Numbered from the stretch's first letter, positions 2,300-52,841 are shown. The stretch: 64,000 bases of DNA from Conexivisphaerales archaeon (GCA_038728585.1 JAVYTR010000002.1:228354-292353); one strand, 5' to 3'. Program-made: numbers and translations. Notes: generated by a model not told the origin, from the letters alone.

Positions 2300-2599
2300 T
2301 CAGCTGAAGGTTTTTTCTTGGCTCTCTCTAGTCTCTTCGAACAGCCTCTGTATGCTTCTTGCCACACTGCTATGAGAATTGAGAGAGTATATCCTGATCC
2401 TCCCGAACCTCTTCTCTGTAATTATATCATGCAGCAGGAGAAGCTGGAGGTTTCTGTCAGCTGATGTGTGCTGTAGGTTGCAGAGTCTAGCTAGTTTTGT
2501 TATGTTGATTTCCCCAAACCTTGAGAGAACAGAAAGGAGCCTGACTCTGCCTCTTGAACCGAGCACTTCTTCAAGTTCGAAGAGCATCTTCTCTTTCAA
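2300..2599 (-). CDS. winged-helix DNA-binding protein (ArsR-like)
   Basis: 99 aa. 'INITKLARLCNLQHTSADRNLQLLLLHDIITEKRFGRIRIYSLN' shows an HTH-plus-wing pattern. Its start overlaps the cdc6 stop by 4 nt (ATGA), suggesting co-transcription. Confidence 0.6.
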   Translation of the reverse strand: MKEKMLFELEEVLGSRGRVRLLSVLSRFGEINITKLARLCNLQHTSADRNLQLLLLHDIITEKRFGRIRIYSLNSHSSVARSIQRLFEETRESQEKTFS

Positions 2600-3705: not shown

Positions 3706-3903
3706 AAAGCAAATCTCGCTTTTTATCACCCCTCCTGTCAAGGCATTTTGATTGAATCATTTTTGTTTATAATGATTACCCCTGATGAACCAAAGCGGTC
3801 GACAGAGAGTGGTTTGAAACTGTTATTGGTCGGCAAGAAAATGCCATTCGAATTTTGGTTCTTATATAACTTATCAGTGTGTTCAGGATACATTCAGACT
3901 TGA

Positions 3904-20154: not shown

Positions 20155-21555
20155 TCACTTTGAATTTGGTTCGTTGATGACACTGGGTCTCCCAACACCC
20201 CTGTATGCAAAGCCACTTGACTTTGCCAAGAAAGGTGATATTATATCTCTTGTATCTACCATGGCAGGTTTCTCATTCATCAAGGAGGACAATTTTTTGA
20301 TATCAAGTCCCTTAAATTCGTTGTGTGCAGTACCGATTATTATACAGTCAGATGCAGAAACTGCTTCTTCTAATGTTTTTTCTACCTTAAATCCGAAGAC
20401 CTCCTCGCCTGCATACATTGGGTCATATATCTTTATTTTAGCGCCCATTGACCTGAGCCTCTTGCATATTCTTTCTACGGGGGTTAGCTGTATGTCTTTT
20501 ACATTCTGCTTGTAGGAGACTCCGAGCACGCATATTGTAGAGCCAGCAATCGTTTTGTTCACTTCGTTCATTGCTTCAAAGACCAGCTCAACCACATGCT
20601 CTGGCATCCTGTCGTTAATCTCCCTGGCCATTCTTATCAGATAAGGAATGTTACCAGCTTTGATCCCTTCTTCTATGAGGTAATATGAATTTGAGGGAAG
20701 GCATGGCCCTCCCACCCCAGGGCCAGGGTAATGAGGCATGAAGTTGTATTTTGTCGAGCATGCATTTATAACCTCTATAGTATCAATCCCCAGCTTTTCA
20801 TAAAGCAGCGCAAATTCGTTCATCAGAGCAATGTTTACATCTCTGAACAAGTTTTCAGTCAGCTTCACTGCATTAGCTGTCCTTGGATTACTGACTCGAA
20901 TGACTTTTGTTCCGAGCACTGCTTCGTACAAAGACGCTACGAGTTCTGTGTACTTCGCATCTATTCCTCCCACAACCCGAGGAAGTGACCTCATGTTCGA
21001 CAAAATGTTTCCAGGGTCAGACCTCTCTGGACAGCTGGCAAGACCGAAGTCAGCACCTGCTCGTAACCCTGATTCCTTTTCAAGAATGGGCAGTACCAGA
21101 TTTTCCGCAGTTCCCGGACCGATTGTGCTTTCAATAATTACTGTGCAACCTCTTTTCATGTTCTTTCCTATGGTTCTACATGCAGTCATGACAGCAGAAT
21201 AGTCAGGGGATTTTGTTTCTAAGACCGGGGTTGGAACGCTGACGATTACGAAATCTGACGCGGAAATTGCTGATGATGGTTCTAACGTCGCCTGTAGTTT
21301 GCCGTTCTTTACTACTTCCTTCACAATCTCGGTTAAGCCTGGTTCATCGATGAATACATTTCTGCCAGAATTTATTGATTCAACAAGTCTCGGATTGATA
21401 TCAACACCTCTAACAACGGCTCCTGCCTTTGCAAACATTGCAGCTGTTGGCAGCCCTATCCTTCCCAAGCCTACCACAGCAACTTTCACCTGACCTGAAG
21501 ACAACAATTCCCTGAAAGTCTCCGCTGATGCTTCTTTTGAACTCTCTCTTAGCAC
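20155..21555 (-). CDS. nucleotide-sugar 6-dehydrogenase (UDP-ManNAc/UDP-GlcNAc dehydrogenase-like, WecC type)
   Basis: Rossmann motif 'VAVVGLGRIGLPTAAMFAKAG', catalytic-Cys region 'PGPGVGGPCLPSNSYY' and a UDPG_MGDH three-domain length of 466 aa. It differs from the canonical Ugd at 22220..23596. Confidence 0.75.
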   Translation of the reverse strand: MLRESSKEASAETFRELLSSGQVKVAVVGLGRIGLPTAAMFAKAGAVVRGVDINPRLVESINSGRNVFIDEPGLTEIVKEVVKNGKLQATLEPSSAISASDFVIVSVPTPVLETKSPDYSAVMTACRTIGKNMKRGCTVIIESTIGPGTAENLVLPILEKESGLRAGADFGLASCPERSDPGNILSNMRSLPRVVGGIDAKYTELVASLYEAVLGTKVIRVSNPRTANAVKLTENLFRDVNIALMNEFALLYEKLGIDTIEVINACSTKYNFMPHYPGPGVGGPCLPSNSYYLIEEGIKAGNIPYLIRMAREINDRMPEHVVELVFEAMNEVNKTIAGSTICVLGVSYKQNVKDIQLTPVERICKRLRSMGAKIKIYDPMYAGEEVFGFKVEKTLEEAVSASDCIIIGTAHNEFKGLDIKKLSSLMNEKPAMVDTRDIISPFLAKSSGFAYRGVGRPSVINEPNSK

Positions 21556-22223
21556 GTCTCAGACACCTGCAGAGTAATTATATCAGTGTTATCCGCAGAT
21601 GGTTTCAAATAACTGATTGGCTCACTTGAGGTGCTACCTTTGCTGTACACTTGAGTCACCTGTTCTGTCGCTGTCTTTCGATGAACGTAGCCAGCCAAGA
21701 TCGCAAAGAATATACCCAGCAGAAGAAGTTCAGGCCTGTAACCTGCAAGACTGTAATAATTGAATGAAAAGGGAGCGAGTAGTGCAAATACTCCTGTGTC
21801 TACACTGATGTGAACTGCAAACGAAGAGACCGCCAGCAATGAATATGAAGCTGGTTTATGGAGAAGATAATAAAGTAGGATTGAGAATAAAAATACAAAC
21901 AGGATTGAATGTGCTGGCCTTATGGGCTGAGCCAGACCAATTGCTGAAGGCAGATGGTCGATATCCAGAAAGATAACAAATACTGGAGGTAAAAGGAGTA
22001 AAGAATAATCAAACCTTCTATTCGCGAGTAGAGCCAGTCCTGATACCAACATAGAAGCAGCTAACAGAACGAATTCGTGTAGAGGAATCTGGGAAATCGG
22101 TCGAAATGTCCCTATTCTCACTTCAGCAGAGCTGAATAATAGAGAGATGCCCGTGAGGAGCAATCCCAACAAGAAGTAAAGAAAGAGAATATGGACAATG
22201 TCTGCAAGTGCTCTTTTAATCAT
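21549..22223 (-). CDS. membrane protein, possibly YdjM/DUF457-type membrane-bound metal-dependent hydrolase
   Basis: 224 aa with ~6 TM helices. It has an N-terminal His ('ADIVHILF') and 'FVIFLDIDHLPS', resembling the D-x-DH motif of the YdjM family. It is translationally coupled on both sides (4- and 7-nt overlaps). Confidence 0.4.
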   Translation of the reverse strand: MIKRALADIVHILFLYFLLGLLLTGISLLFSSAEVRIGTFRPISQIPLHEFVLLAASMLVSGLALLANRRFDYSLLLLPPVFVIFLDIDHLPSAIGLAQPIRPAHSILFVFLFSILLYYLLHKPASYSLLAVSSFAVHISVDTGVFALLAPFSFNYYSLAGYRPELLLLGIFFAILAGYVHRKTATEQVTQVYSKGSTSSEPISYLKPSADNTDIITLQVSETC

Positions 22224-23596
22224 TCGTTCTTTTCATCACCCAGTTTTGTGGACTTTGAAGTACCGATGGTGACTAGCTTGACACCGCTTCCTTGGTAATC
22301 TTTCACGTTCAATATTCTTCTTGTATCAATCACCACAGCTCTTTTCATAAGCCTTTTGAATTCATCAGGCTTTATTTCCCTGAACTCGGGCCAATCAGTT
22401 GCCACTATAGCAATGTCTGCATTGCTTAGGGTCTTCGCAAGTGTGTCTGAATATTTTATGCTGTTTCCAAGTACTTCCCTCGTCTTTGGAACAGCTGCCG
22501 GGTCGAAAGCTACAACCCTTGCGCCATTGTCCAGCAATTGTTTTGCAATCCGCAACGAAGGTGAATCACGCACATCATCAGTTCCACCTTTATACGCAAG
22601 ACCAAGGAGAGCAACCCTCTTCCCTCTAAGACCCTCAGCTTCCTTTTCAGCAATTGAAACTATTACTTTCGGTTGATTGTCGTTGATTTTGAGTGCCGCT
22701 TCGAGAAGTATCGGGTCTACCTTCATGTTCCTCATAAGAGAAAGCAGTGCCTTCATATCCTTGGGAAGACAGCTGCCTCCGAACCCAGGCCCTGGCCTGA
22801 GATATCTATTATCTACCCTTGTAATCTTAGCAAAGCCATCGATTATTTCGCCCACATCAGCATTCTGCAAGGCTCCTGCCAGATTGGCTAAAGAATTTAG
22901 GAAGCTGAGCTGTACACCTCTGAAACTGTTAACTGCGTACTTTATCATTTCAGCGTTGGTGAACGAGGTCAGTATGAGAGGAGGTAAATCTGAATAGAAC
23001 CTCTTGTAGAGGTCAAGTATTACCCTTTCAGACCTGGTATCCTCTCTACCTATAATAAGTGCATCCGGATTCAGCGTATCTTTTATTGCTGAGCCTTCCC
23101 TTAACAGTTCAGGATTTACACACAAACCTATGCCTTTGCCCACCTTCTTGCCAGAAAGCCTTTCTAGAGTCGGTTTGACGAAATTGTAAGTTGTTCCCGG
23201 GATGACAGTGCTCTTCATGACAACAGTCTGGAAGTGCCCAGTTCTACTCAGAGCGATACTGATCTCTTCCACCGCTTGTTTAACATACTTTGTCTCCATG
23301 GAACCATCAGGATTGGATGGCGTACCTACAGTTATGAAGATGAAACTACCAGAAGATGCTTCATCGTCGAACTCTGTTCCGAACGAAAGGTTACCTTTAC
23401 TGATTCCTTCCTGAAGCATCTCCTTGAGCATAGCTTCATGAATCACTGGCACTCCAGACGAAACCTTCTTGACTTTGTCTGCATCTACATCTATCCCCCT
23501 AACCTTGAATCCTCTCGATGCAAAGCAGACAGCAGTTGAGAGACCAACATACCCTAGGCCGACTATTACTACATCGTATTCAGGTCTTGAACGCAA
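22220..23596 (-). CDS. ugd: UDP-glucose 6-dehydrogenase
   Basis: 'VVIVGLGYVGLSTAVCFASRGFKVRGIDVD' and catalytic 'GPGFGGSCLPKDMKALL'; 458 aa. Confidence 0.85.
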   Translation of the reverse strand: MRSRPEYDVVIVGLGYVGLSTAVCFASRGFKVRGIDVDADKVKKVSSGVPVIHEAMLKEMLQEGISKGNLSFGTEFDDEASSGSFIFITVGTPSNPDGSMETKYVKQAVEEISIALSRTGHFQTVVMKSTVIPGTTYNFVKPTLERLSGKKVGKGIGLCVNPELLREGSAIKDTLNPDALIIGREDTRSERVILDLYKRFYSDLPPLILTSFTNAEMIKYAVNSFRGVQLSFLNSLANLAGALQNADVGEIIDGFAKITRVDNRYLRPGPGFGGSCLPKDMKALLSLMRNMKVDPILLEAALKINDNQPKVIVSIAEKEAEGLRGKRVALLGLAYKGGTDDVRDSPSLRIAKQLLDNGARVVAFDPAAVPKTREVLGNSIKYSDTLAKTLSNADIAIVATDWPEFREIKPDEFKRLMKRAVVIDTRRILNVKDYQGSGVKLVTIGTSKSTKLGDEKNE

Positions 23597-23607: not shown

Positions 23608-24099
23608 CTATCGTTCAGATTGAATGGTTCTAACAAGAACCATCATCGTTGCAGAAGTTGCCGCTACAAAAAGAAGTTGATGCACGGAAACAGGAACTGA
23701 AGCAAGAAAAGAAAGAGCCTCCCAGTAAATACTTGCTAGATAAATAGATGCGACACCAAGCATACAAAACTTTGCCAGTCTGGTGTCAAATCTTCGAATT
23801 GCCAGATAAGTGGGAGAGATGAGAAGCATGGACAAAATAACCTGTACCGGTTTTAATAAGGTAATGCACGAACCGCAGCTACCAGAAGCTGCAACTCCTG
23901 ATGGTAATAGCGATGACCAAGAAACTGTTGGTGTAAGACCAAACGCTATGAAAGTCAGATAGTTTGATAGCTCGTAGACAAAGACTGACCCTGTGATAAA
24001 GAGAAGCATGATAATCAGGTCTGCAATCAGTGTGTATGACCAGTTTTTGACTTTATTCCTATTCTTCGATTCAGATATTGCTGCCAGGGGTCGGACCAC
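23608..24099 (-). CDS. hypothetical 4-TM membrane protein immediately downstream of the archaeosortase
   Basis: 163 aa and hydrophobic, with a 29-nt overlap on the archaeosortase 3' end. No family recognised. Confidence 0.45.
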   Translation of the reverse strand: MVRPLAAISESKNRNKVKNWSYTLIADLIIMLLFITGSVFVYELSNYLTFIAFGLTPTVSWSSLLPSGVAASGSCGSCITLLKPVQVILSMLLISPTYLAIRRFDTRLAKFCMLGVASIYLASIYWEALSFLASVPVSVHQLLFVAATSATMMVLVRTIQSER

Positions 24100-24982
24100 C
24101 TTTTGTAGCTTTGTTCAATGAGCTTGCAGTTCTGCTCGGAACAGTTGAGATGTGCCTGAATGCTACCGACCAGAAGATTATAACCCAGACTATGAAGAGG
24201 GTGTATCCAGCATAAACGTGCATCACCTTGCCTGCTTCCACACCCAGGTATTCGAATGTTAGGAAAATAACCGCTAGTCGTACTATGTTAATTAGGAATG
24301 CTCCGGTAAAACCTGTAGCAATTAGCACTATCAGTTGCTTCCTAGTCGGTCTTGCATCAAGCAACGCCATACTCGAAAGCAAGCCGAATGCTAGTATCCC
24401 TTTGAGACCTGTGCACGGTCCGTCAACTTCGAGAGCCATCGTGTACAAGGAACCATCAGGAGTGTAGTTCTGGAGGTATACTATGTTCGGCTGGACTGGA
24501 TTGACCGATGCACTCACTCCTATTGCCCTCATGAAATCAGCCATAAGTCCGGCTAGTGAATACTGGAGGCCCAGCAGCTCGGGTACGTTGTTTTCGACCT
24601 GATATCCTGTAATCAGTATGGCTAGATACAGATAAGGTACGTAGAAGAATTTTATTGACCTAATACCATAGAAAGCAACAGATAAGGCCATGAATATCAG
24701 GAGCATGTCTATTAAACCCAGATTTGAATGACTGATTGCGTTCTCTGTGAAGTCAAGCGCAACGACAGTAATTCCTCCAACGACCTCATATATTTTGGGA
24801 TGCTCATTAAGTGACTTGAGGTTGTTCCATTTGAAGACAAACCAAGCAAATAAAATTATGCCAACCGTAAATACGAAGGGGTAGTCTATCCCTGTTCCCG
24901 GTATTATCAGAGGGATAAGGTAAGCTGCGAATACAGAAATTACGAATATCTCAGATTTTCTTGCGTGCAGTAAGGTGTTCAA
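24071..24982 (-). CDS. artC: archaeosortase-family transpeptidase (ArtC-like, inferred from the adjacent PEF-CTERM substrate)
   Basis: 303-aa polytopic membrane protein with ordered Cys ('EVDGPCTGLKGILAF'), Arg ('FLINIVRLAVIF') and His ('KVMHVYAGYTLF') motifs, as in exosortase/archaeosortase enzymes. It lies 61 nt downstream of a PEF-CTERM protein gene. Confidence 0.7.
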   Translation of the reverse strand: MNTLLHARKSEIFVISVFAAYLIPLIIPGTGIDYPFVFTVGIILFAWFVFKWNNLKSLNEHPKIYEVVGGITVVALDFTENAISHSNLGLIDMLLIFMALSVAFYGIRSIKFFYVPYLYLAILITGYQVENNVPELLGLQYSLAGLMADFMRAIGVSASVNPVQPNIVYLQNYTPDGSLYTMALEVDGPCTGLKGILAFGLLSSMALLDARPTRKQLIVLIATGFTGAFLINIVRLAVIFLTFEYLGVEAGKVMHVYAGYTLFIVWVIIFWSVAFRHISTVPSRTASSLNKATKGGPTPGSNI

Positions 24983-25025
24983 AGTACTTTAGCACCATCT
25001 TTTGTAAGCTAGCTGCCCGTGTAGT

Positions 25026-25032
25026 TAAAAAA
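25026..25032 (-). terminator. oligo-T tract (T7 on the minus strand) after the PEF-CTERM gene
   Basis: A7 on the plus strand, 12 nt beyond the stop at 25044. Oligo-T tracts act as archaeal intrinsic terminators. Read-through into artC cannot be excluded. Confidence 0.3.
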
Positions 25033-25043
25033 ATGGACAGCCT

Positions 25044-25568
25044 TCAGCTTACAACTGGCATCTTAGTTGTCTGGCGCCTTAGGGCCATGATTGCGACGAT
25101 ACCTGCACCGAGAGCCGCCAGCATACCCGCTGCGAACTCTGGAGTTGTGTTGAGCCCTGTTGTGTGTGCGGCTGTAGTTGTTGAACCTCCGCATGTACCA
25201 TCAGTTGCTGTTACAGTAAGTGATGCTACGGAACCAACAAGTGTAGGGGTGGTTACGCTCACCGTTACAGTTGCTGATCCGCTGCCACTAACAGGAACTG
25301 ATGAAGGCGAAGCAGACCAGGACCAGCCGCTCGGAGGTGAATTCGTAGTAACTGCTAGGGTTGTAGGACTGGTGAACCCGGCCCAAGTTATAGTGTAGAT
25401 CAAGGTGGATGTTGTACCTGCGGGGAGTGTAGCCTGAAGAGGACCCGATACTGAAACACCAGGACAGGGTACGTTTGTGGCGAAAGCTAAATTAGCTGAA
25501 GGTACAAGCATTAAGGCCAAGCCTATCGCAACGATTCCCAAAGCGCTCAGTAATAGTAGAGACTTCAC
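25044..25568 (-). CDS. secreted Thr/Ser-rich surface protein with PEF-CTERM sorting signal
   Basis: Signal peptide 'MKSLLLLSALGIVAIGLALMLVPSANLAFA' and one beta-sandwich-like domain ('PPSGWSWSASPSSVPVSGSGSATVTVSVTTP..SLTVTATDGT'). The C-terminus is 'TTPEF' plus 'AAGMLAALGAGIVAIMAL' plus 'RRQ' (motif, TM helix, basic cluster). Confidence 0.8.
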   Translation of the reverse strand: MKSLLLLSALGIVAIGLALMLVPSANLAFATNVPCPGVSVSGPLQATLPAGTTSTLIYTITWAGFTSPTTLAVTTNSPPSGWSWSASPSSVPVSGSGSATVTVSVTTPTLVGSVASLTVTATDGTCGGSTTTAAHTTGLNTTPEFAAGMLAALGAGIVAIMALRRQTTKMPVVS

Positions 25569-25589
25569 AACCTTACCATGCCTTAGTCC

Positions 25590-25597
25590 TTATATAA
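25590..25597 (-). promoter_or_regulatory. TATA box (TTATATAA) for the PEF-CTERM gene, leaderless geometry
   Basis: A palindromic TTATATAA preceded on the minus strand by purine-rich 'aaagg' (BRE-like). Its proximal edge is ~22 nt from the GTG start at 25568. Confidence 0.4.
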
Positions 25598-25659
25598 CCT
25601 TTAGGAACTTTAAATTCATCCGGATAGATTGTAAATCTATCATTACTGACTTTTAGCTG

Positions 25660-26754
25660 TCACTTGAATGAAGAAATGATCAGTTCTACAGAATTGTCAA
25701 GAATGAATCCACTTAGAACCCTTCGCCTTGCTTCTTGGCCATGCCGTCTAATAATTTGAGGGTTATTGAGGTAATAGCAGATAGCCTTGCTCAGCTCTGT
25801 TGGATTGGATTCAGGCACTAGCTTTCCAGTTACTCCATCTATTATAGCTTCCTTTATCCCGCCAGAATAGGTACCTATTGATGGTATTGAGTAAAAAGCA
25901 GCTTCAAGTATGACTGTCCCAAAGCCCTCGACGTCTCCAGATAGCGTCTTCGAAGGCAAAACAAGGAGGTTACTGCCGGAGATGACTTCGTACAAAAGTC
26001 TTCCTCGCAATTGACCGTGAAACGTAACTTTATTTGTTAACGATAGCCGGCTAACGATATTTCTTAGATTATTTAATTCTGGACCATCTCCTACTATGCT
26101 TAGAGTTGCATCAGGGAACTCCTTACTGACGAGATAGAAAGCTTTTATCAGATCGTCGACGCCTTTCCTCCGGACGAGCCTGCCCACAAAGATTATTCGG
26201 TTTGTAGCTTTTCTGTGGCTTGATTGCAATTGCATTTCATATGGATCGATGCATGGATAAAGAATGACAGTCTTACCAGTTACACGATTACCCAATAGTG
26301 AAGCTGTGTACATAGAGTTTACAGCTACCCTACGTGCCAGCTTCAGCGCTAGTGGTAATAAAAAGTGTTCTGACGTGAGCTTGATCCTAGCACTTAAAAT
26401 GTCCTTACCATACAACAGTGCTGTAGTCCTGATTCTAGCAAATTTAGCATAAGCCAGAATGTAGATTCCTGGCAGGGTAAGGCATCCTGTCAGCATAAAG
26501 ATTGCTTCTATCTTCATTCTTTTCAAAAAAGAAAGTAGGTTAATGAGCGTAAGAAAGAAGTTAAGCGAATGCAGACTAACGGTCAAACCATCCCCCTTTT
26601 GAAGTCTATCGGGGTTCTGATATCGCTTGGACACAAAGGAGATGAGATACGCGTTGTGACCCTTTTTCTTCAGTCCCCGGAGGTATAGCCTAGCTCTGTT
26701 CTCAATTCCTCCGACTTCCTGGGGAGGGTCGAATGTAATTATCAGCACGTTCAT
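25660..26754 (-). CDS. family 4 glycosyltransferase
   Basis: 'EVGGIENRARL' N-terminus and 'GDVEGFGTVILEAAFYSIPSIGTYSGG'. 4-nt overlap with the upstream 1216-aa gene. Confidence 0.85.
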   Translation of the reverse strand: MNVLIITFDPPQEVGGIENRARLYLRGLKKKGHNAYLISFVSKRYQNPDRLQKGDGLTVSLHSLNFFLTLINLLSFLKRMKIEAIFMLTGCLTLPGIYILAYAKFARIRTTALLYGKDILSARIKLTSEHFLLPLALKLARRVAVNSMYTASLLGNRVTGKTVILYPCIDPYEMQLQSSHRKATNRIIFVGRLVRRKGVDDLIKAFYLVSKEFPDATLSIVGDGPELNNLRNIVSRLSLTNKVTFHGQLRGRLLYEVISGSNLLVLPSKTLSGDVEGFGTVILEAAFYSIPSIGTYSGGIKEAIIDGVTGKLVPESNPTELSKAICYYLNNPQIIRRHGQEARRRVLSGFILDNSVELIISSFK

Positions 26755-29700
26755 TGTTGGGACTCGGCAGCGTCTTCTATCTGTTTACGCAGTCCTCTGA
26801 AAATCGCAGGCATAAAACGCTTAAGCTTACTGAATGACAGCGAAAGGCCCAAAGAGATAGCCAGACCGATTATTCCGCCCACAACAGGATAGCTCAACGC
26901 TAGTGTAACATATTCTATTCCACCTGATTGCTGGCTTGGATTTATCGGTAAAGTTGCTCCAAGATAAGATATCTTCATCTGGTATCCATCTGGGGGAAGC
27001 TGGGGGAAGTACGCGTATCCTGATGCGTTAGTAAGAACATGTATTTCTGTTCCATTTGGAAGAATGAGCGAGACATAGGCATTCTTAATTGGTTGGCCGA
27101 ACACATCTTGCACTCTTATAGTATCAGAATGTATGTTCAGTCCGAAGACAATAGTGCTTGGACTTTCAACAGTAAAAGTAGCGTTGGAAGTGGTAATTGG
27201 AGCCACACTCGTCCCTCCCCACTCTGCACCGAGCAGAGTATATGTAACACCGCTTAGAGACCAGAAAGAGAAATTGTTTTCCAGCTGGATAATACCTTGA
27301 GAATAGCTTAATAGAACTTCGGTCGGCACAACTCTTGACTTCTGAGCATCGATAAAGCTTAGGTTAACCCTGTAGAAACTTGAATACTGCGCCAAAATAG
27401 CGACATCGTTTTGCACTCTTATGGTTATGTTACTATCGTCACTCTTTATACCGCCTGCCCATCCAACGAACCTGATTTGTTCGTTCTTCGAAACTGATAT
27501 CAGTGGTAAGGCGCTTATGTTATGGGCCGAGTCTATTACCCAGCTGAAGCTTACTGGAAGCAAATAAGTTCTGCCGTCTATCATTACTGAGCTATCTGGC
27601 TGGTTCGATTCGAAAGAAATTGTAGCTACATTATTGATGATAGCTGATTGGCCAAACAGAGCCAAAACCGTAGTGTCAGAAGTCAAGGGAAATGATATCA
27701 TGCTACCATTGCCTGCATAATTCCCGTTTACAAACCAACTCTCTAAGACCCACCCAGCTATCGGTTTCGCTGCTATATTGATCATAGAACCTGCTGGTAG
27801 CTGGTATGAACCACTCTGAGGTTCTGTGGAACCAAAACCCGCAGGTCCAGACGCTATCGTCAGGGTGTAGTACTGTTGTTGATTCTGCTGAGTCATGTTA
27901 TCGTTTCCGTTTGATCCACTACCTCCTGATTGCACTTCTCCGCTACCTGATGTGTTATTTTGCTGTTGTCCTGATCCTGTTGAAGATTGTGCAGCCAATA
28001 CACTGATGCTCAGGATAGCTGTGGCAAGTAGAGTTGAAGAATTGGCTTGTAAGATCACAGTGTAAATGCCTGGTTGCATAGAAGAAGAAGCAGTCACATA
28101 AAGTGAAGATGTGAAGTTTGTATATGCAGTACTTGGTGAGAATGTAACTCCCAGACCATTCGGCAACTGGAAAGCTGAAAGCGATACTTTTTGAGAAGCA
28201 ACACGATAGCTGTTCACGTTTAGCGATAAAGAGGTAGAGTTACCCTGTGTTAGCGTCACGGAAGACTGAGAGGGCGATATTGTCAGGCTACCTGTCTGTG
28301 AAGTATTCCCCAAGGTGACAGTTAGCGTGACTGCGTTGTCCCCTACAAAGTGGACGTATAACAACTGATTGTTAGTGTCATAATACCACCCAGTTTCAGT
28401 CCTGTTTGACCATGAATTACCGTTCCAAAACATTCCTATATGGCTGCTGTTCAGACTCTGCAGTGTCTGGTATTCCGGTATCTGGCCCGAATTAGAAGAT
28501 GTAACCGCTTGTGGCTTGGACGCGACGTGTAAAATAGCCCAACCAGAGAATGCATGTGGCCCGGTAAGAAAGTATTCCGCCGAATTCTGAGTTAGGTTAG
28601 ATATATTTAATCTGAGATTAGTATAAAGTAGAGAGATACTGGCAGTGCTGGTATTGAATACGTAAACTGGATTCCAGCCTTGACTTGGAATGTTGATGCT
28701 AAGACCAAATGAAGTTCCGCTTCCTCTGCCCACCACAGACCAGTCTAATGCACTAACTGCAATCCAACCGTTCTGGCCAATATTGTAATTGTTCAGGTTC
28801 AGGTTTATAGTAGCTCTGTCGCCAGAAGTGCTATTCGTATAGAACCATAGAAGAAGCGGAGCACCTTTTCCCCCCAAGACTGTGACACCAGTACTCGGAT
28901 CATTTGCAGAGATCGGTGCTGCATAGTTACCACCTACACCAACATACGCCATTCTGTTTAGCAAGAGACCATAGCTCATCAAAAGTCCTATCATAGGATT
29001 TGATGGATTGTTGTAAGGGAGATTACCAGGTTCCATTATTGATGTTGCAGCGCAGTATGCTTCAAGGTAAATCATGTTTCTTACGTTTGGATATGTCCCT
29101 GTAACCAAGAAACCGTTTATTGTGTTAGCTTGATTAATATGATTCCGACAAACGGATTCGTCATATGATACGGATACGCTAGTTGGTGGATTACCATTCT
29201 CAAAATCCAATACGCCGTTCATTACGTAGTTGTTGAACAGATTTAGGTTCTCGATATATGAAGTATTGTACGGGAACGGATAAGATGAAGGCTGAAGGGA
29301 GACACCAGCATAGTCATATGACGCATGGATGAAGAATGGATGATTTAAATGGTAGTTCTGCGTAAAATTATAAGTAGCATAGGAGAGACCCAGAAAGAGC
29401 TGATAATCCAGCCACAATCCGAACCATTTGGCATCGTTATTTGCAATGGTATTTGCTATTGCACGAGTGTTAGCGCCACCAGTAGCATAGAATACCAATG
29501 TCGCACAGTTCGAATAATGTTGTGTGCATTGGGGGGAATTGGCAAAATTGATGACTGTCTGGTTTGACCAGTAGTAGTCTGTTGCAAAGCCGGACCCTAG
29601 CACAATGCTTGCTCCAGGCTTCTGTAGATCCCCATGATCTGCATAAATACCTGGACCAACTTCTATACCATACCAATAACTGATTAGAGCAGGGTTTGAG

Positions 29701-30401
29701 GCTCGCATGTTATTGTATATATTCACAAGGTCATTGTAAATCTGTTTTGAAAAATCAAGAGTATCAACTCTGACATAATCCTTACCGATCGCTGACATTC
29801 TGCTAGCTGTCAGAGGTGTTCCGTTGTAGTCGTAAGTGATAAGATTGGGATATTGTTTTACCACCTGCTGTCCCCACTGTACACATTCTGTTCCATAAGA
29901 ATCCAAAGGCTCCTGAATCAAAAATGGCGTCTGATACCTCTGAATTGCAGAGGAGGTCGAACTTCCATAAATCGGGTCTGACAGTGTGATTTTACTAAAA
30001 GATGTATTCGCGTTCGAACACCACCCCGCTCTCCCCTCCCATGGAAGAATCAATGAAGCCATGGATTGTTGCTCCTGCATCTGCATATCTGTTACTCCCT
30101 GGCCGAAAGACCAGCCCCCTCCTCCCCACGAAGCAAACTGGTAAGTGACATATGGTATCTGTAATCCACCCGTAAATGAAACTGACGGACTGAAAGAAGA
30201 ATTTGAGATGATTGTTGAGTTAGACTGTAAGGGAGGTGGTGAGGTCAAAGGGGAGTTGTTTGCTATGCTTACAATCAGCAAAGCAATGACTACTAGTGCA
30301 GAAATAGCTCCCAAGATGTATTTCCATTTTGCAATGAATTTAATAAAGGCATTGGCACTAAACAATAAATATGCGCTTTTTATTAGGTTTCTAGCAGTCA
30401 T
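26751..30401 (-). CDS. giant (1216 aa) extracellular multidomain protein, anchored at both ends and rich in N-glycosylation sequons
   Basis: N-terminal TM 'YILGAISALVVIALLIVSIA' and C-terminal TM 'VVGGIIGLAISLGLSLSF' plus a basic tail. About 30 N-x-S/T sequons counted by eye. There is a Gln/Asn/Ser/Gly linker ('QSSTGSGQQQNNTSGSGEVQSGGSGSNGNDNMTQQNQQQ'). Ig-like segments, a Listeria/Bacteroides-repeat-like segment ('YTLTIASGPAGFGSTEP..AKPIAGWVLESWFVNG') and a carboxypeptidase-regulatory-like segment ('PIKNAYVSLILPNGTEIHVLTNASGYAYF') are present. The ~550-aa N-terminal domain is unassigned. Confidence 0.75.
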   Translation of the reverse strand: MTARNLIKSAYLLFSANAFIKFIAKWKYILGAISALVVIALLIVSIANNSPLTSPPPLQSNSTIISNSSFSPSVSFTGGLQIPYVTYQFASWGGGGWSFGQGVTDMQMQEQQSMASLILPWEGRAGWCSNANTSFSKITLSDPIYGSSTSSAIQRYQTPFLIQEPLDSYGTECVQWGQQVVKQYPNLITYDYNGTPLTASRMSAIGKDYVRVDTLDFSKQIYNDLVNIYNNMRASNPALISYWYGIEVGPGIYADHGDLQKPGASIVLGSGFATDYYWSNQTVINFANSPQCTQHYSNCATLVFYATGGANTRAIANTIANNDAKWFGLWLDYQLFLGLSYATYNFTQNYHLNHPFFIHASYDYAGVSLQPSSYPFPYNTSYIENLNLFNNYVMNGVLDFENGNPPTSVSVSYDESVCRNHINQANTINGFLVTGTYPNVRNMIYLEAYCAATSIMEPGNLPYNNPSNPMIGLLMSYGLLLNRMAYVGVGGNYAAPISANDPSTGVTVLGGKGAPLLLWFYTNSTSGDRATINLNLNNYNIGQNGWIAVSALDWSVVGRGSGTSFGLSINIPSQGWNPVYVFNTSTASISLLYTNLRLNISNLTQNSAEYFLTGPHAFSGWAILHVASKPQAVTSSNSGQIPEYQTLQSLNSSHIGMFWNGNSWSNRTETGWYYDTNNQLLYVHFVGDNAVTLTVTLGNTSQTGSLTISPSQSSVTLTQGNSTSLSLNVNSYRVASQKVSLSAFQLPNGLGVTFSPSTAYTNFTSSLYVTASSSMQPGIYTVILQANSSTLLATAILSISVLAAQSSTGSGQQQNNTSGSGEVQSGGSGSNGNDNMTQQNQQQYYTLTIASGPAGFGSTEPQSGSYQLPAGSMINIAAKPIAGWVLESWFVNGNYAGNGSMISFPLTSDTTVLALFGQSAIINNVATISFESNQPDSSVMIDGRTYLLPVSFSWVIDSAHNISALPLISVSKNEQIRFVGWAGGIKSDDSNITIRVQNDVAILAQYSSFYRVNLSFIDAQKSRVVPTEVLLSYSQGIIQLENNFSFWSLSGVTYTLLGAEWGGTSVAPITTSNATFTVESPSTIVFGLNIHSDTIRVQDVFGQPIKNAYVSLILPNGTEIHVLTNASGYAYFPQLPPDGYQMKISYLGATLPINPSQQSGGIEYVTLALSYPVVGGIIGLAISLGLSLSFSKLKRFMPAIFRGLRKQIEDAAESQQ

Positions 30402-31195
30402 CTGTAAACAATATCTCTATTTTTCTTACTCATATCTGTATATAAATCAAGAGAATAGTCAGAAAGTCTAAATTTTCTATTAAATGGATCATTATACTGT
30501 TCGTAGAACCTAAATGTCAAATACGCAATCGTTGCTATTGAAATATGAGCCATTTTTATAAAAGTGCTTTTTTCCGCCCAGTAACTTCTGACGGGTTTAC
30601 TCATACGAAAGGAGTCACGGTATACGTAATAATTATGGGGTATTCCGTGTTTACGCTTTCTTAATAATTGACCTATTTTGACTCTGGTCGGTTTATCGAC
30701 ATATACTAACTTTCCTGCCTTAGCAGCCCTAGACCATAAGTCAAAATCTTCTCCCCAATTAAGATTTCTCCAACCCCCTAGTTGTGCGATTACATCTCTA
30801 GGACCGATCAGGAAGTCCCTTAATACTAGTATCTTCCCCTCTATATGCTCATGGTAAAAATCAATAGTAGGTCGAAAATCGCCTATCACGTCGTCCAAAT
30901 CGACCTGGCTGATAATATAATCGCCTTTCGATTTTTCAAATGCCATCTGCCTTGCAAGTCCTCTGCATCTCTTCGCCTGATAGTAGAGTCGAAGCAGTCC
31001 TTTTTCTGCGTATTTTTCTAGTATTTCGCGAGAACCATCTGTGCTATTACCATCTACAACTACTATTTCGTACCTATCGTCGATATAATTAAAGATAGCC
31101 TGTAAGGATTCTTCGATAATAGGGAATGAATTGTAGTTAATTATACAAATAGAGTAAGTAATCCCGGTCACTTTGCTGTCACTTGTGCTACTCAA
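30398..31195 (-). CDS. small family 2 glycosyltransferase (subfamily with paralogues at 39822 and 57544)
   Basis: 'YSICIINYNS', 'IVVVDGNSTDGS', 'SQVDLDD' and 'LGGWRNLNWGEDFDLWSRAA'. Confidence 0.8.
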   Translation of the reverse strand: MSSTSDSKVTGITYSICIINYNSFPIIEESLQAIFNYIDDRYEIVVVDGNSTDGSREILEKYAEKGLLRLYYQAKRCRGLARQMAFEKSKGDYIISQVDLDDVIGDFRPTIDFYHEHIEGKILVLRDFLIGPRDVIAQLGGWRNLNWGEDFDLWSRAAKAGKLVYVDKPTRVKIGQLLRKRKHGIPHNYYVYRDSFRMSKPVRSYWAEKSTFIKMAHISIATIAYLTFRFYEQYNDPFNRKFRLSDYSLDLYTDMSKKNRDIVYR

Positions 31196-31203
31196 CTACT
31201 TAA

Positions 31204-32340
31204 TCATTGACCAAGCAACCATTGGTAGGTTACATCCATTTTGGCCAGGAAGCGGTGTTTTGCGTACTTTTCTTCGGCAAACAGTTTCGCTCTGGCTATT
31301 TGATATGAAATTTTCTCCTTATTTTGTAAGACGAAATCAAACGCTTTCGCCAAGCTAAGTGGGTCGTTAGATGGCACGAATACTGCATTTCCGTTTGTGA
31401 CCTCTTTATATATAATGTTATCTGATGCAATAATTGGCACTTGGTGCAACATAGCGTCTGCCAACGACATGGCGAAGGTTTCACCTCCGGCAAACGAATC
31501 TGTATAGATACAGAAGGCATCAGCCATCCGATAAAATATACTAGGGTTGTCAACATATCCTGTCAGTATGACATCTGGATATAATTTTTTGAGTTTCATA
31601 AAGAAACGGTTTGTCGCAGTGCCCATTCCTGCCAGTACAAGAGAGACTTGTGACTTATGACCCATCAGGTTGTAAGCCTTGCAGATATCCTCTATTCCTT
31701 TTGTAGACTTTATTTTACCGAAATAGAGAATGATTTTTTTATCTTCTACTCCCAGCTTTTGTCTTGTTACCTGAATCTCCTTATTAGAAATCTGTGACGG
31801 ATCCCTACAGAAGTTTGGGATTACAACCGTCTTCCTGAACATGTAAGGTGCTGTATTGGAAATCAGATCATCTCTTGCAGCTTTAGTTGGACATATCACA
31901 AGCCTAGCGGCCTTCATACTCAACTTCAAAATCTGCAAGCCTATCAGATGACTTGGCTTGGATCGGTAGCCTACCTCTCTTGATATAGCATTGTGAAGAT
32001 GCATCACCTTCTTGATCTTACTGGGATAAAGAAGGAGGCAAATAATGGCTCCTTCGAGACCATGACAATGAACTATTCTTGGCTTTAATCTCCTTATCAT
32101 TAATAATGCCTTGACACACCATATAAGATAACCTAGTGCTTCCGCCTTAGGTGTATCGAGTTGTATTACTTGATTTTCCGAAACGTATCCTTTCCAGCGC
32201 CTTGTAATAACATAAGAGGAATAGCTTGACCGCATCAGAAAGGTATGTAAGGCTTGAACTATGTTTTCAATGCCACCAATTCTATCTGGAGGATATCCAG
32301 CACAGACCTGAACCACACATGCATCTTTATTGTTCTTCAT
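31204..32340 (-). CDS. family 4 glycosyltransferase
   Basis: 'GGIENIVQAL' N-terminus and a GT-B C-terminal domain 'GGETFAMSLADAMLHQVPIIAS' (less canonical EX7E). Confidence 0.75.
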   Translation of the reverse strand: MKNNKDACVVQVCAGYPPDRIGGIENIVQALHTFLMRSSYSSYVITRRWKGYVSENQVIQLDTPKAEALGYLIWCVKALLMIRRLKPRIVHCHGLEGAIICLLLYPSKIKKVMHLHNAISREVGYRSKPSHLIGLQILKLSMKAARLVICPTKAARDDLISNTAPYMFRKTVVIPNFCRDPSQISNKEIQVTRQKLGVEDKKIILYFGKIKSTKGIEDICKAYNLMGHKSQVSLVLAGMGTATNRFFMKLKKLYPDVILTGYVDNPSIFYRMADAFCIYTDSFAGGETFAMSLADAMLHQVPIIASDNIIYKEVTNGNAVFVPSNDPLSLAKAFDFVLQNKEKISYQIARAKLFAEEKYAKHRFLAKMDVTYQWLLGQ

Positions 32341-49026: not shown

Positions 49027-49027
49027 T

Positions 49028-51443: not shown

Positions 51444-51468
51444 AAAAAACGCTCCTTACGATAAGACT

Positions 51469-52839: not shown

Positions 52840-52841
52840 CT

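What the first reader, a model, noticed from the sequence alone, without database searches (positions are those of the whole stretch)
23608..25600. Archaeosortase plus a single adjacent PEF-CTERM substrate, embedded in a polysaccharide-export locus
Seen in the sequence:
- ORF 24071..24982 is a polytopic membrane protein carrying, in order, Cys ('DGPCTGLKG'), Arg ('NIVRLAVIF') and His ('VMHVYAGY'). This is the exosortase/archaeosortase catalytic layout.
- 61 nt upstream on the same strand, ORF 25044..25568 encodes a 174-aa protein with a signal peptide and one Thr/Ser-rich beta-sandwich-like domain.
- That protein ends 'TTPEF|AAGMLAALGAGIVAIMAL|RRQ' (motif, TM helix, basic cluster), which is a PEF-CTERM signal.
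- The substrate gene has its own TATA box (TTATATAA, 25590..25597, leaderless spacing) and a T7 tract after its stop. It therefore looks like a separately, probably highly, expressed structural gene followed by its processing enzyme and a small 4-TM partner (23608..24099).
- The cassette sits between GT4 and giant-surface-protein genes and two NDP-sugar dehydrogenases.

Established knowledge: the PEF-CTERM/archaeosortase C pairing was proposed from comparative genomics. To my knowledge only ArtA/PGF-CTERM has been tested experimentally. In bacteria, PEP-CTERM/exosortase systems co-localise with EPS loci.

Inference: this is a dedicated one-enzyme/one-substrate sorting cassette functionally tied to the surrounding glycopolymer pathway. 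That would be an archaeal analogue of the exosortase-EPS linkage, which I am not aware has been described.
Basis: partly seen in the sequence, partly recalled or inferred. Interest (0 to 1): 0.8.

Follow-up and report, generated by a model that had tools for sequence, protein, structure and literature searches.

The report
Unclassified archaeosortase with adjacent PEF-tailed substrate
A soil/hot-spring archaeon (Conexivisphaerales) carries a membrane "sorting" protease of a still unnamed archaeosortase branch. Directly beside it lies a small surface protein with the matching C-terminal cleavage tag, and the pair sits in a block of sugar-pathway genes that recurs in distant relatives, which hints at a link between protein anchoring and glycan synthesis that has not been tested.

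Summary
**Observation.** ORF 24071-24982(-) is a genuine exosortase/archaeosortase-family protein, with Cys190, Arg235 and His255 conserved. ORF 25044-25568(-) is a Sec-exported Ig-like protein ending in TTPEF + TM helix + RRQ.

**Label.** The "ArtC / PEF-CTERM" label fails.
- The enzyme scores 44.5 bits against a cut-off of 100 for ArtC and does not hit thaumarchaeosortase.
- No tail passes the PEF-CTERM or PEFG-CTERM models.
- The enzyme belongs to a small unnamed clade confined to Nitrososphaerota MAGs (Conexivisphaerales, Gagatemarchaeum, "Nitrososphaerales").

**Sorting signal.** In 29 distinct related loci, 25 carry at least one protein with a [T/V]-P-[E/Q]-F-[G/A/P] + TM + R/K tail within 10 kb. 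In the 26 loci analysed in detail:
- the tail sits on at least 12 unrelated ectodomain families;
- half of the tailed proteins lie within 1.5 kb of the enzyme.

This is the signature of a real sorting signal.

**Gene neighbourhood.** Several neighbours recur at only 40-50% enzyme identity and in shuffled order:
- an orthologous GT4;
- two NDP-sugar dehydrogenases flanking a YdjM-like membrane protein;
- a small TM protein;
- a giant surface protein.

The link to glycan genes is therefore conserved. Its chemistry (acceptor synthesis, glycosylation, or co-regulation) is unknown.

**Limits.** "One enzyme / one substrate" is not established. Relatives have 0-3 local substrates, and the genome-wide count could not be made.

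**Verdict.** This is a new variant of a known kind, of moderate interest.

The parts
25590..25597 (-). TATA box (TTATATAA) of the substrate gene, 21 nt upstream of its GTG start. The spacing suggests a leaderless or near-leaderless transcript.
   Evidence: Seen in the sequence. The box and the 21-nt spacing are the same in relative L001. Promoter function is inferred.
25044..25568 (-). Substrate gene. It encodes a 174-aa pre-protein with a Sec signal peptide (residues 1-30), one Ig-like beta-sandwich (about residues 35-140), an N140-T-T sequon, and the sorting tail.
   Evidence: ORF. AlphaFold model with core pLDDT around 90. Generic Ig/PapD-like fold matches. Only 7 homologues in 5.8 billion proteins, all annotated hypothetical. 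Conserved residues.
25044..25148 (-). C-terminal sorting signal: T141-T-P-E-F145, hydrophobic helix 146-164, R165-R-Q, then a short tail and the stop codon.
   Evidence: Sequence. The architecture recurs on at least 12 unrelated proteins next to homologous enzymes. PEFG-CTERM model 15.1 bits against a cut-off of 25, and no PEF-CTERM hit.
25027..25033 (-). T7 tract after the substrate stop codon. It is a candidate archaeal terminator or attenuator, or the TATA-like element of the next gene. A GGTG Shine-Dalgarno-like element follows, before the archaeosortase start.
   Evidence: Seen in the sequence. The T-rich tract, GGGCAGCTAGC and GATGGTG are conserved in L001. Function is inferred.
24071..24982 (-). 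Archaeosortase-family protein of 303 aa, about 8 TM helices plus a small extracytoplasmic beta-sheet. Cys190 (24415-24413), Arg235 (24280-24278) and His255 (24220-24218) sit at helix ends predicted to lie on the same, outer, membrane face.
   Evidence: Pfam PF09721 63 bits. TIGR04178 49.2 bits against 23. ArtC 44.5 bits against 100. Residue conservation. AlphaFold pLDDT 79 with helices 192-210, 214-246 and 248-278. No solved structure of this fold. Topology is my inference from hydropathy.
23608..24099 (-). Small membrane protein (163 aa, 3-4 TM) with invariant Y42, E43, N46, K83, Q86, W126 and E127. It overlaps the archaeosortase 3' end by 29 nt. Function unknown.
   Evidence: Orthologues in 10 of 26 loci. 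No Pfam or NCBIfam family. In distant loci it lies directly after the giant gene.
22220..23596 (-). NDP-sugar 6-dehydrogenase, closest to UDP-glucose 6-dehydrogenase AglM/TuaD.
   Evidence: TIGR03026 423 bits, above cut-off. AglM model 367 bits against 670. Pfam. Orthologues near the enzyme in 11 of 26 loci, and also in L031 and L032.
21549..22223 (-). Membrane protein of 224 aa, a weak relative of the YdjM family (annotated as putative membrane-bound metal-dependent hydrolases). It lies between the two dehydrogenases.
   Evidence: Invariant D87, D89, H90, R102, P103, A104, S106 and H138; H105 and D142 are nearly invariant. Pfam YdjM matches 4 of 10 orthologues, best E 1.5e-5, all below the gathering score. 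Present in 11 of 26 loci.
20155..21555 (-). Second NDP-sugar dehydrogenase, closest to archaeal UDP-N-acetyl-D-mannosamine dehydrogenase.
   Evidence: TIGR03026 415 bits. UDPMaNacDH_Arch 343 bits against 750. Orthologues at 65-84% identity in 13 of 26 loci.
25660..26754 (-). GT4 glycosyltransferase immediately upstream of the substrate gene.
   Evidence: Pfam Glycos_transf_1 124 bits. Orthologues (39-61% identity, E<=1e-60) within 5 kb of the enzyme in 15 of 26 loci, and also in L028-L032.
26751..30401 (-). Giant surface protein of 1216 aa with an N-terminal TM anchor and Ig-like/CarboxypepD_reg-like domains. It ends in a conserved LSYPV + TM + basic C-terminus.
   Evidence: Pfam. The C-terminal ~500 aa are conserved in 10 of 26 loci. 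No PDB relative by sequence.
30398..32340 (-). GT2 (30398-31195) and a second GT4 (31204-32340). They are translationally coupled with the giant gene through 4-nt overlaps and begin the co-directional array.
   Evidence: Pfam. Coordinates. Both are conserved in L001.

Best explanation
**What it is.** This is a protein-sorting module of the exosortase/archaeosortase type. The enzyme belongs to an unnamed archaeosortase clade found in Nitrososphaerota MAGs.

**Proposed sequence of events.**
1. The 174-aa protein is exported by Sec and loses its signal peptide.
2. It stays held in the membrane by its C-terminal helix, with RRQ on the cytoplasmic side.
3. The polytopic enzyme has Cys190, Arg235 and His255 at the outer membrane face. 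It recognises the [T/V]-P-[E/Q]-F motif at the outer end of that helix.
4. The enzyme cleaves there through a thioacyl intermediate, as proposed for ArtA.
5. It passes the new C-terminus to a membrane-bound acceptor. The small Ig-like protein ends up covalently fixed at the cell surface.

**Context.** The module is inherited together with a set of envelope-glycan genes: a GT4, a UDP-Glc-DH-like and a UDP-ManNAc-DH-like dehydrogenase flanking a YdjM-like membrane protein, a small TM protein and a giant surface protein.

**Why the glycan genes travel with it.** I consider three readings about equally likely:
- they glycosylate the sorted proteins;
- they build the acceptor or surrounding glycan layer;
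- they are simply co-regulated envelope genes.

**Shown versus inferred.**
- Shown: family membership, conserved residues, the portable tail, adjacency, and conserved synteny.
- Inferred: cleavage, the acceptor, topology, and any chemical role of the sugar genes.
For: **Enzyme**
- It passes the family-level models.
- Cys, Arg and His are conserved in 23 homologues.
- The AlphaFold model has 8 helices and places the three residues at helix ends.

**Tail**
- 33 proteins in 26 loci share an invariant P and F. Position 2 is E (19) or Q (13) among the 32 distinct tail sequences.
- About 17 hydrophobic residues follow, then 2-3 R/K.
- The tails sit on at least 12 unrelated ectodomain families.
- Control motifs occur 0-2 times against 33.

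**Pairing**
- 17 of 33 tailed proteins lie within 1.5 kb of the enzyme (binomial p = 1e-6 against a uniform spread over 10 kb).
- A tailed gene directly abuts the enzyme gene in lineages that use different substrate families.
- The same GT4-substrate-enzyme-small TM order holds at 57% and 76% identity.

**Synteny within 10 kb in 26 loci**
- Tailed protein: 23 loci.
- GT4 orthologue: 15 loci.
- Dehydrogenases: 11-13 loci.
- YdjM-like protein: 11 loci.
- Small TM protein: 10 loci.
- Giant protein: 10 loci.
- Gene order and orientation are shuffled between loci. Two further metagenome contigs agree.

**Gene packing.** The window array is tightly packed, with 4-nt overlaps.

**Mechanistic precedent**
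- ArtA needs Cys173, Arg214 and Arg253 (PMC9263693).
- Its proposed acceptor, archaetidylethanolamine, was found by following artA-pssA-pssD synteny (PMC7157517).
Against: - No experiment exists for this clade or for any archaeosortase other than ArtA.
- The enzyme fails every named subfamily model, so substrate specificity cannot be transferred from a characterised relative.
- ArtA's third critical residue is an Arg, not the His highlighted here. The equivalent here may be the conserved R/K at position 276.
- Four loci have no tailed protein in the flank held, so adjacency is not obligatory.
- Many loci are contig-truncated, so the synteny fractions are lower bounds and not phylogenetically corrected.
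- The sugar genes are of generic kinds found in any envelope island.
- The genome-wide number of tails is unknown.
Confidence: 0.65

Rival explanations
1. Housekeeping sorting. The enzyme is the organism's general archaeosortase, with many substrates scattered over the genome. It lies in a large cell-envelope island only because envelope genes cluster. The adjacent substrate is one of many, and the glycan genes serve general N-/O-glycosylation or S-layer biogenesis.
For: - Relatives carry up to three tailed proteins of different families per 20 kb, some 6-9 kb away at the edge of the flank.
- Four loci have none nearby, so their substrates must be elsewhere.
- The window is a uniform-composition run of more than 40 kb of glycosyltransferases, methyltransferases and two ABC-2 exporters.
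- ArtA genomes have from 1 to 52 substrates (PMC6098224).
Against: - Only one tail occurs in 64 kb here.
- Tailed genes are strongly concentrated within 1.5 kb of the enzyme.
- The same specific orthologues, not merely any glycan genes, recur despite rearrangement.
- Whole modules appear duplicated within one MAG (L013+L014, L026+L027).
Confidence: 0.25
2. First reader's filing. The pair is an ArtC / PEF-CTERM system of the kind described in Methanosarcinales and ANME, merely divergent.
For: - ArtC is the best-scoring named archaeal subfamily (44.5 bits, E 1.7e-11, full-length alignment).
- More distant relatives of the clade approach the ArtC cut-off at 81-97 bits.
- The motif in the window reads PEF.
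Against: - The score is less than half the curated cut-off of 100.
- The PEF-CTERM model gives no hit to the window tail or to ten relatives' tails.
- 13 of 32 distinct tails have Q instead of E.
- All members are in Nitrososphaerota, not Euryarchaeota.
Confidence: 0.07
3. The tail is only a permanent C-terminal membrane anchor, and the neighbouring exosortase homologue acts on something else or is inactive.
For: - No processing data exist.
- The giant protein next door also has a conserved motif + TM + basic C-terminus, which may be a plain anchor.
Against: - An invariant P-x-F at a fixed distance from the helix, on at least 12 unrelated families clustered around the enzyme gene, is not expected of plain anchors.
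- The catalytic residues are conserved.
Confidence: 0.03

Closest known systems
Archaeosortase C (ArtC, TIGR03762) with PEF-CTERM (TIGR03024), Methanosarcinales/ANME
   Same: - Same protein superfamily.
- It is the best-scoring named archaeal subfamily, with a full-length alignment.
- The substrate motif contains P-E-F followed by a TM helix and basic residues.
   Different: - The score is 44.5 bits against a cut-off of 100.
- The tails do not match the PEF-CTERM model.
- Q replaces E in about 40% of tails.
- The phylum is different (Nitrososphaerota).
Thaumarchaeosortase (TIGR04297) with PEFG-CTERM (TIGR04296). From my own knowledge, this is the system of ammonia-oxidising Thaumarchaeota such as Nitrosopumilus.
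   Same: - Same phylum.
- Many relatives' tails read (T/V)PEFG.
- The window tail aligns to positions 3-26 of the 30-position PEFG-CTERM model.
   Different: - The enzyme has no thaumarchaeosortase hit at E<=1.
- The tails score 13-15 bits against a cut-off of 25, or do not hit at all.
- Named members found here include Conexivisphaerales and Gagatemarchaeum, lineages described as non-ammonia-oxidising (PMC10640624 abstract).
Archaeosortase A / PGF-CTERM of Haloferax volcanii, the only archaeosortase tested by experiment
   Same: - Polytopic enzyme with conserved Cys and Arg.
- Tripartite C-terminal signal.
- Precedent that genes syntenic with the enzyme (pssA, pssD in Methanosarcina) make the acceptor (PMC7157517).
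   Different: - Different motif (PGF).
- ArtA's critical residues are Cys173, Arg214 and Arg253.
- No pssA/pssD-type gene was seen among the window ORFs that I scanned.
- The neighbours here are sugar-nucleotide and glycosyltransferase genes.
Bacterial PEP-CTERM / exosortase A (EpsH) systems in EPS loci
   Same: - A homologous enzyme is embedded among GT4 glycosyltransferases and sugar-nucleotide enzymes.
- The GT4's best NCBIfam hit is the PEP-CTERM/XrtA-system GT4 TIGR03088, though far below cut-off (96 bits against 409).
- It shares the idea of a protein-sorting and polysaccharide linkage.
   Different: - Archaeal, with no outer membrane.
- The motif is P[EQ]F, not PEP.
- None of the XrtA accessory families I know (EpsI, EpsL, PrsK/R/T) was detected.
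- The XrtA model was not among the hits for the window protein.

Membership tests
Exosortase/archaeosortase superfamily (PF09721; TIGR04178 signature) | Score above the curated cut-offs of the family-level models | tested here: met
   PF09721 63.0 bits against 25.7. TIGR04178 49.2 bits against 23, residues 184-273.
Exosortase/archaeosortase superfamily (PF09721; TIGR04178 signature) | Conserved Cys, Arg and His at the ends of the last three TM helices | tested here: met
   C190 in 22 of 23 homologues; R235 and H255 invariant. They sit at or in helices 192-210, 214-246 and 248-278 of the model.
Exosortase/archaeosortase superfamily (PF09721; TIGR04178 signature) | Proteolytic or transpeptidase activity on tail-bearing substrates | not testable with these tools
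   Needs mass spectrometry or genetics.
Archaeosortase C (TIGR03762) | Score at or above the curated cut-off (100 bits) | tested here: not met
   44.5 bits. The nearest cluster representatives score 36-58 bits.
Archaeosortase C (TIGR03762) | Cognate substrates carry PEF-CTERM (TIGR03024) | tested here: not met
   No PEF-CTERM hit at E<=1 for the window substrate or for 10 relatives' substrates.
Thaumarchaeosortase (TIGR04297) / PEFG-CTERM (TIGR04296) | Enzyme scores at or above 250 bits | tested here: not met
   No hit at E<=1 for the window protein. Only 29-32 bits for distant relatives P0139 and P0146.
Thaumarchaeosortase (TIGR04297) / PEFG-CTERM (TIGR04296) | Tail scores at or above 25 bits on PEFG-CTERM | tested here: not met
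   15.1 bits for the window tail. 13.0 bits for one of 10 relatives' tails, and none for the other nine.
C-terminal sorting signal (generic tripartite type) | Short invariant motif, then a TM helix, then a basic cluster at the extreme C-terminus of proteins with N-terminal signal peptides | tested here: met
   33 proteins. P and F are invariant, position 2 is E or Q, and R/K lie at +21 to +23.
C-terminal sorting signal (generic tripartite type) | Signal occurs on unrelated protein families, so it is portable | tested here: met
   At least 12 ectodomain clusters with no BLASTP similarity at E<=1e-5.
C-terminal sorting signal (generic tripartite type) | Genome-wide co-occurrence of signal and enzyme (phylogenetic profile) | not tested
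The tail-profile search of the protein database returned one hit only.
PEP-CTERM/XrtA-type EPS-linked system (analogy only) | Enzyme gene conserved next to polysaccharide-synthesis genes | tested here: met
   A GT4 orthologue in 15 of 26 loci and NDP-sugar dehydrogenases in 11-13 of 26, within 10 kb. Also L028-L032.
PEP-CTERM/XrtA-type EPS-linked system (analogy only) | XrtA model score and PEP motif | tested here: not met
   XrtA was not among the window protein's hits. PEP + TM + basic occurs 0 times in the loci.

The most novel reading that the evidence does not exclude
The conserved neighbours are the GT4, the UDP-Glc-DH-like and UDP-ManNAc-DH-like dehydrogenases, and the YdjM-like membrane protein between them. 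In this reading they make the nucleophilic acceptor of the sorting reaction. The archaeosortase would then join P[EQ]F-tailed proteins covalently to a uronic-acid-containing glycolipid or surface glycan rather than to a phospholipid such as archaetidylethanolamine. That would be an archaeal protein-to-glycan sorting system. It would also give the long-hypothesised but unproven exosortase-polysaccharide attachment a tractable, compact test case.
Probability: 0.15. Interest if true: 0.8.

Novelty: new variant of a known kind. Interest (0 to 1): 0.45.

Why it matters
**State of the field.** Only ArtA/PGF-CTERM has been tested among archaeosortases. The 2018 review I read still describes archaeosortases as found in a subset of Euryarchaeota (PMC6098224).

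**What this adds.**
- It defines an uncurated enzyme clade and its cognate [T/V]P[E/Q]F tail in Nitrososphaerota MAGs, including lineages described as non-ammonia-oxidising.
- These organisms are abundant in acidic soils but have hardly been studied at the cell-envelope level.
- It gives annotation pipelines two new models to build: one for the enzyme subfamily and one for the sorting domain.

**Why it is testable.** The module is compact and conserved: enzyme, adjacent small substrate, one GT4, two sugar dehydrogenases and two unknown membrane proteins. That makes the old question [quoted passage not shown] directly approachable with a handful of genes.

**If ordinary.** If the link proves to be mere co-regulation, the finding is a routine family extension.

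Tried and rejected
1. **Exact-sequence look-up of the window archaeosortase and of P0001.** Nothing was on record. The source was identified only through the name of the 100%-identical database protein.
2. **Genome-wide count of tails.**
   - It was then run at 44 aa and E<=10 and gave a single 30-aa hit.
   - That used the last homologue search with no result. The tool needs several shared 5-mers and E<=10 in a database of 5.8 billion sequences, which a 40-aa signal cannot reach.
3. **Haft et al. 2012 (PMC3256604).** The paper is not held. What I say about thaumarchaeosortase biology beyond the model names rests on my own knowledge.
4. **Solved structures.** No PDB relative was found by sequence or by fold. 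The afdb50 library was unavailable.
5. **Giant protein.** No PDB sequence relative and only weak Ig-like Pfam hits. Its [LF]SYP[VL] + TM ending occurs only in orthologues, so I rejected it as evidence of a second portable signal.
6. **Horizontal acquisition.** I rejected this because GC is flat at 0.40-0.45 across the window.
7. **tRNA and Rfam scans.** Both were empty.
8. **Several large membrane ORFs** (3904-5187, 61639-63762 and others). No family in Pfam or NCBIfam.
9. **Variant motifs in the four loci without tails.** None were found.


Full report
**1. What is in the sequence**

On the minus strand, eleven genes run head to tail from 32340 down to 20155, with gaps of at most 91 nt or short overlaps:
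- GT4 (31204-32340)
- GT2 (30398-31195)
- a 1216-aa protein (26751-30401)
- GT4 (25660-26754)
- the 174-aa protein (25044-25568)
- the 303-aa polytopic protein (24071-24982)
- a 163-aa membrane protein (23608-24099)
- an NDP-sugar dehydrogenase (22220-23596)
- a 224-aa membrane protein (21549-22223)
- a second NDP-sugar dehydrogenase (20155-21555)

TTATATAA is at 25590-25597, 21 nt before the GTG start. A T7 tract is at 25027-25033. The same TATA-to-GTG spacing, the T-rich tract and a GGTG element before the next gene are conserved in a relative whose enzyme is 76% identical. The window has uniform GC (0.40-0.45), no tRNA and no Rfam match. The 303-aa protein is 100% identical to a protein annotated "exosortase/archaeosortase family protein" from a Conexivisphaerales archaeon MAG (taxonomy).

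**2. The enzyme**

The 303-aa protein passes Pfam Exosortase_EpsH (63 bits against 25.7). It also passes the NCBIfam exosortase/archaeosortase signature (49.2 bits against 23).

It fails every named subfamily:
- Archaeosortase C scores 44.5 bits against a cut-off of 100.
- The generic exosortase model (TIGR02602, 8TM_EpsH) scores 44.6 bits against 105.6.
- Thaumarchaeosortase (TIGR04297, a model that exists in the library) gives no hit at E<=1.

In 23 homologues, Arg235 and His255 are invariant. Cys190 is present in all but one apparently frameshifted sequence.

AlphaFold with that alignment gives pLDDT 79. The model has eight long helices and a small beta-sheet (157-185) just before Cys190. 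The three residues sit at the start of helix 192-210, inside helix 214-246 and at the start of helix 248-278. From hydropathy and the positive-inside rule, I infer that all three face the outside. No solved structure resembles the protein by sequence or fold.

An exhaustive profile search of 1.84 billion cluster representatives finds only 13 with E<=1e-30. The clade is therefore small and compact. Its nearest full-length representatives are equally unclassified. More distant ones approach, but do not reach, the ArtC cut-off at 81-97 bits. All named homologues and all 24 genome loci come from Nitrososphaerota MAGs: Conexivisphaerales, "Nitrososphaerales archaeon" and Candidatus Gagatemarchaeum.

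**3. The substrate and its tail**

The 174-aa protein has these parts:
- a Sec signal peptide;
- two conserved cysteines;
- a confidently predicted single beta-sandwich (core pLDDT around 90) that matches only generic Ig/PapD/Fn3-like folds;
- a conserved N140-T-T sequon;
- the ending T-T-P-E-F, an 18-19-residue hydrophobic stretch, and RRQ.

It has only seven detectable homologues, all annotated hypothetical. The PEF-CTERM model does not hit it. PEFG-CTERM scores 15.1 bits against a cut-off of 25.

**4. Is the tail a real sorting signal?**

I fetched 24 genome loci with a profile of the enzyme. I added the 76%-identity relative and later five metagenome loci.

In 26 distinct loci, 33 ORFs of at least 120 aa end in P-[E/Q]-F + hydrophobic stretch + R/K. 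All begin with a signal-peptide-like segment.

Aligned on the motif, the 32 distinct tail sequences show:
- P and F invariant;
- position -1 is V or T in 31 of 32;
- position 2 is E in 19 and Q in 13;
- position +3 is G, P or A;
- the basic cluster sits at +21 to +23.

Control tripeptides under the same rule give 0-2 matches against 33.

After removal of the tail, the ectodomains fall into at least 12 clusters with no mutual similarity. That is the defining behaviour of a portable sorting domain. Seventeen of the 33 lie within 1.5 kb of the enzyme gene (binomial p = 1e-6 against a uniform spread over 10 kb).

Different lineages place different substrate families directly beside the enzyme:
- the ~270-aa family in L004, L011 and L020;
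- the ~210-aa family in L005, L007, L018, L023, L026 and L027;
- the window's family in the window, L001, L020 and L028-L030.

None of ten such proteins passes a curated sorting-domain model. The signal is therefore real but uncurated. It is best written [T/V]-P-[E/Q]-F-[G/A/P]-CTERM.

**5. One enzyme, one substrate?**

The window has a single tail in 64 kb. Relatives have 0-3 within 10 kb, some at the edge of the flank held. Four loci have none, and no variant motif either. Substrates can therefore lie elsewhere in the genome.

My attempt to count tails genome-wide through the protein database failed. The strict "one-to-one" claim is untested for this organism and is not a property of the clade. 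What is conserved is that a substrate gene usually sits next to the enzyme gene.

**6. The link to glycan genes**

Features found within 10 kb of the enzyme in the 26 distinct loci:

| Feature | Loci (of 26) |
|---|---|
| Tailed protein | 23 |
| Orthologue of the GT4 at 25660-26754 (39-61% identity) | 15 |
| UDP-Glc-DH-like dehydrogenase | 11 |
| 224-aa membrane protein | 11 |
| UDP-ManNAc-DH-like dehydrogenase | 13 |
| 163-aa membrane protein | 10 |
| Giant protein | 10 |

Many loci are cut by contig ends, so these are lower bounds. Gene order and orientation differ between loci. This argues for maintained proximity rather than mere inheritance of one arrangement.

Independent, Pfam-annotated metagenome contigs agree:
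- giant - GT4 - … - GT4 - substrate - enzyme - small protein - GT4, at 57% enzyme identity;
- GT4 - enzyme - dehydrogenase - 210 aa - dehydrogenase, next to a polyprenyl-phosphate sugar transferase, a nucleotidyltransferase and epimerases;
- giant - GT4 - epimerase - tail protein - enzyme - epimerase - tail protein … dehydrogenase … dehydrogenase.

Two MAGs carry two such loci each (L013+L014 and L026+L027).

On the individual genes:
- Both dehydrogenases pass only the subfamily-level model. One is closest to AglM/TuaD-type UDP-glucose 6-dehydrogenase and the other to archaeal UDP-ManNAc dehydrogenase.
- The 224-aa protein has invariant D87, D89, H90, R102, P103, A104, S106 and H138, with H105 and D142 nearly invariant. 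It has weak, sub-threshold similarity to Pfam YdjM.
- The 163-aa protein has invariant charged and polar residues in its TM segments and belongs to no family.
- The wider window also holds two ABC-2 permease/ATPase pairs. An ABC-type glycan export route is therefore available, but it lies 23-35 kb away.

**7. How it most likely works**

By homology with ArtA, the tailed protein is exported and retained by its C-terminal helix. It is then cleaved at the motif by the Cys-dependent enzyme through a thioacyl intermediate, and the new C-terminus is transferred to an acceptor. For ArtA:
- Cys173, Arg214 and Arg253 are required (PMC9263693).
- The proposed acceptor is archaetidylethanolamine.
- That acceptor was found by following artA-pssA-pssD synteny in Methanosarcina (PMC7157517).

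The same logic applied here points at the GT4, dehydrogenase and YdjM-like genes. Synteny cannot distinguish between acceptor synthesis, glycosylation of the sorted proteins (note the conserved N-T-T sequon next to the motif) and plain co-regulation of envelope genes.

I put about 0.85 on "genuine sorting enzyme plus cognate signal". I put about 0.5 on "the glycan genes act in the same pathway". I put about 0.15 on "they make the acceptor".

**8. Comparison with known systems, and novelty**

- **Kind of system.** It works like an archaeosortase/CTERM system and is a member of the superfamily.
- **Membership.** It is not a member of ArtC or thaumarchaeosortase by the curated tests. Its signal is not PEF-CTERM or PEFG-CTERM by the curated tests.
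- **Literature.** Full-text searches found no paper connecting archaeosortases with Conexivisphaera or Gagatemarchaeaceae. No title or abstract among the papers listed for "archaeosortase" plus "exopolysaccharide" concerned an archaeosortase in a glycan gene cluster. The 2018 review describes archaeosortases as found in a subset of Euryarchaeota (PMC6098224).
- **Precedent.** The exosortase-EPS association is long known in bacteria, and NCBI already labels these proteins at family level.

I therefore rate this as a new variant of a known kind: an uncurated enzyme clade, an uncurated signal variant with E/Q at position 2, and a conserved sugar-gene neighbourhood. Interest is moderate (0.45). 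It would rise sharply only if the acceptor proves to be a glycan.

Noticed in passing
window 26751-30401 (-); L001 4594-8235; L004 3304-5412; L005 9108-15572; L011 17276-20803; L013 11574-14927: The giant surface protein and its orthologues all end in [L/F]-S-Y-P-[V/L] followed directly by a TM helix and a basic cluster. This is a tripartite layout like a sorting signal. It occurs only on homologous C-termini, so it may be just a conserved anchor.
   Followed up: partly
window 21549-22223 (-): A 224-aa membrane protein with invariant D87, D89, H90, R102, P103, A104, S106 and H138 and weak YdjM similarity. In relatives it is typically sandwiched between two different NDP-sugar dehydrogenases. 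This three-gene unit of unknown function is conserved.
   Followed up: partly
window 23608-24099 (-): A small 3-4-TM protein with invariant Y42, E43, N46, K83, Q86, W126 and E127 and no family assignment. In distant loci it lies directly downstream of the giant gene rather than the archaeosortase gene, so it may partner the giant protein. Its GTG start overlaps the archaeosortase gene by 29 nt.
   Followed up: partly
window 48217-50107 and 58569-60439 (-): Two pairs of an ABC-2-type permease candidate and an ABC ATPase (Wzm/Wzt-like arrangement) inside the long glycosyltransferase array.
   Followed up: no
window 11458-12837 (-); L001 18201-19622: A secreted phosphoesterase (PF04185, phospholipase C/acid phosphatase family) with a signal peptide. 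The window copy has a C-terminal TM anchor ending RKARRERKI. The gene is conserved near the module in the 76%-identity relative.
   Followed up: no
L013 + L014 (same MAG, SPRUCE 301); L026 + L027 (MFD00008.bin.2.90); L019 1799-2137: Some genomes carry two archaeosortase loci of this clade. In L013/L014 each has its own giant gene, small TM gene and tailed proteins. L019 has an archaeosortase gene fragment beside the intact gene.
   Followed up: no
window 25149-25151 region (residue N140 of ORF 25044-25568): An N-T-T glycosylation sequon sits directly before the PEF motif. It is present in six of the seven close homologues of the substrate; the most distant (P0120) has A-T-T instead.
   Followed up: no
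window 3904-5187 (-), 61639-63762 (-), 36124-37494 (-), 50109-54326 (-): Several large ORFs in the glycan array match no Pfam or NCBIfam family. They include an 8-TM 427-aa protein and a 707-aa protein with 7 or more TM helices. These are candidates for unrecognised polymerase, ligase or GT-C-type enzymes.
   Followed up: partly
window 2596-3741 (-) and 225-959 (+): An Orc1/Cdc6 replication-initiator gene and a CbiQ-type ECF transporter component lie at the edge of the window, outside the glycan array.
   Followed up: no
L006, L012, L021, L031: These archaeosortase loci keep the GT4 and/or dehydrogenase neighbours. They have no P[EQ]F-tailed ORF, and no variant motif, in the flank held.
   Followed up: partly
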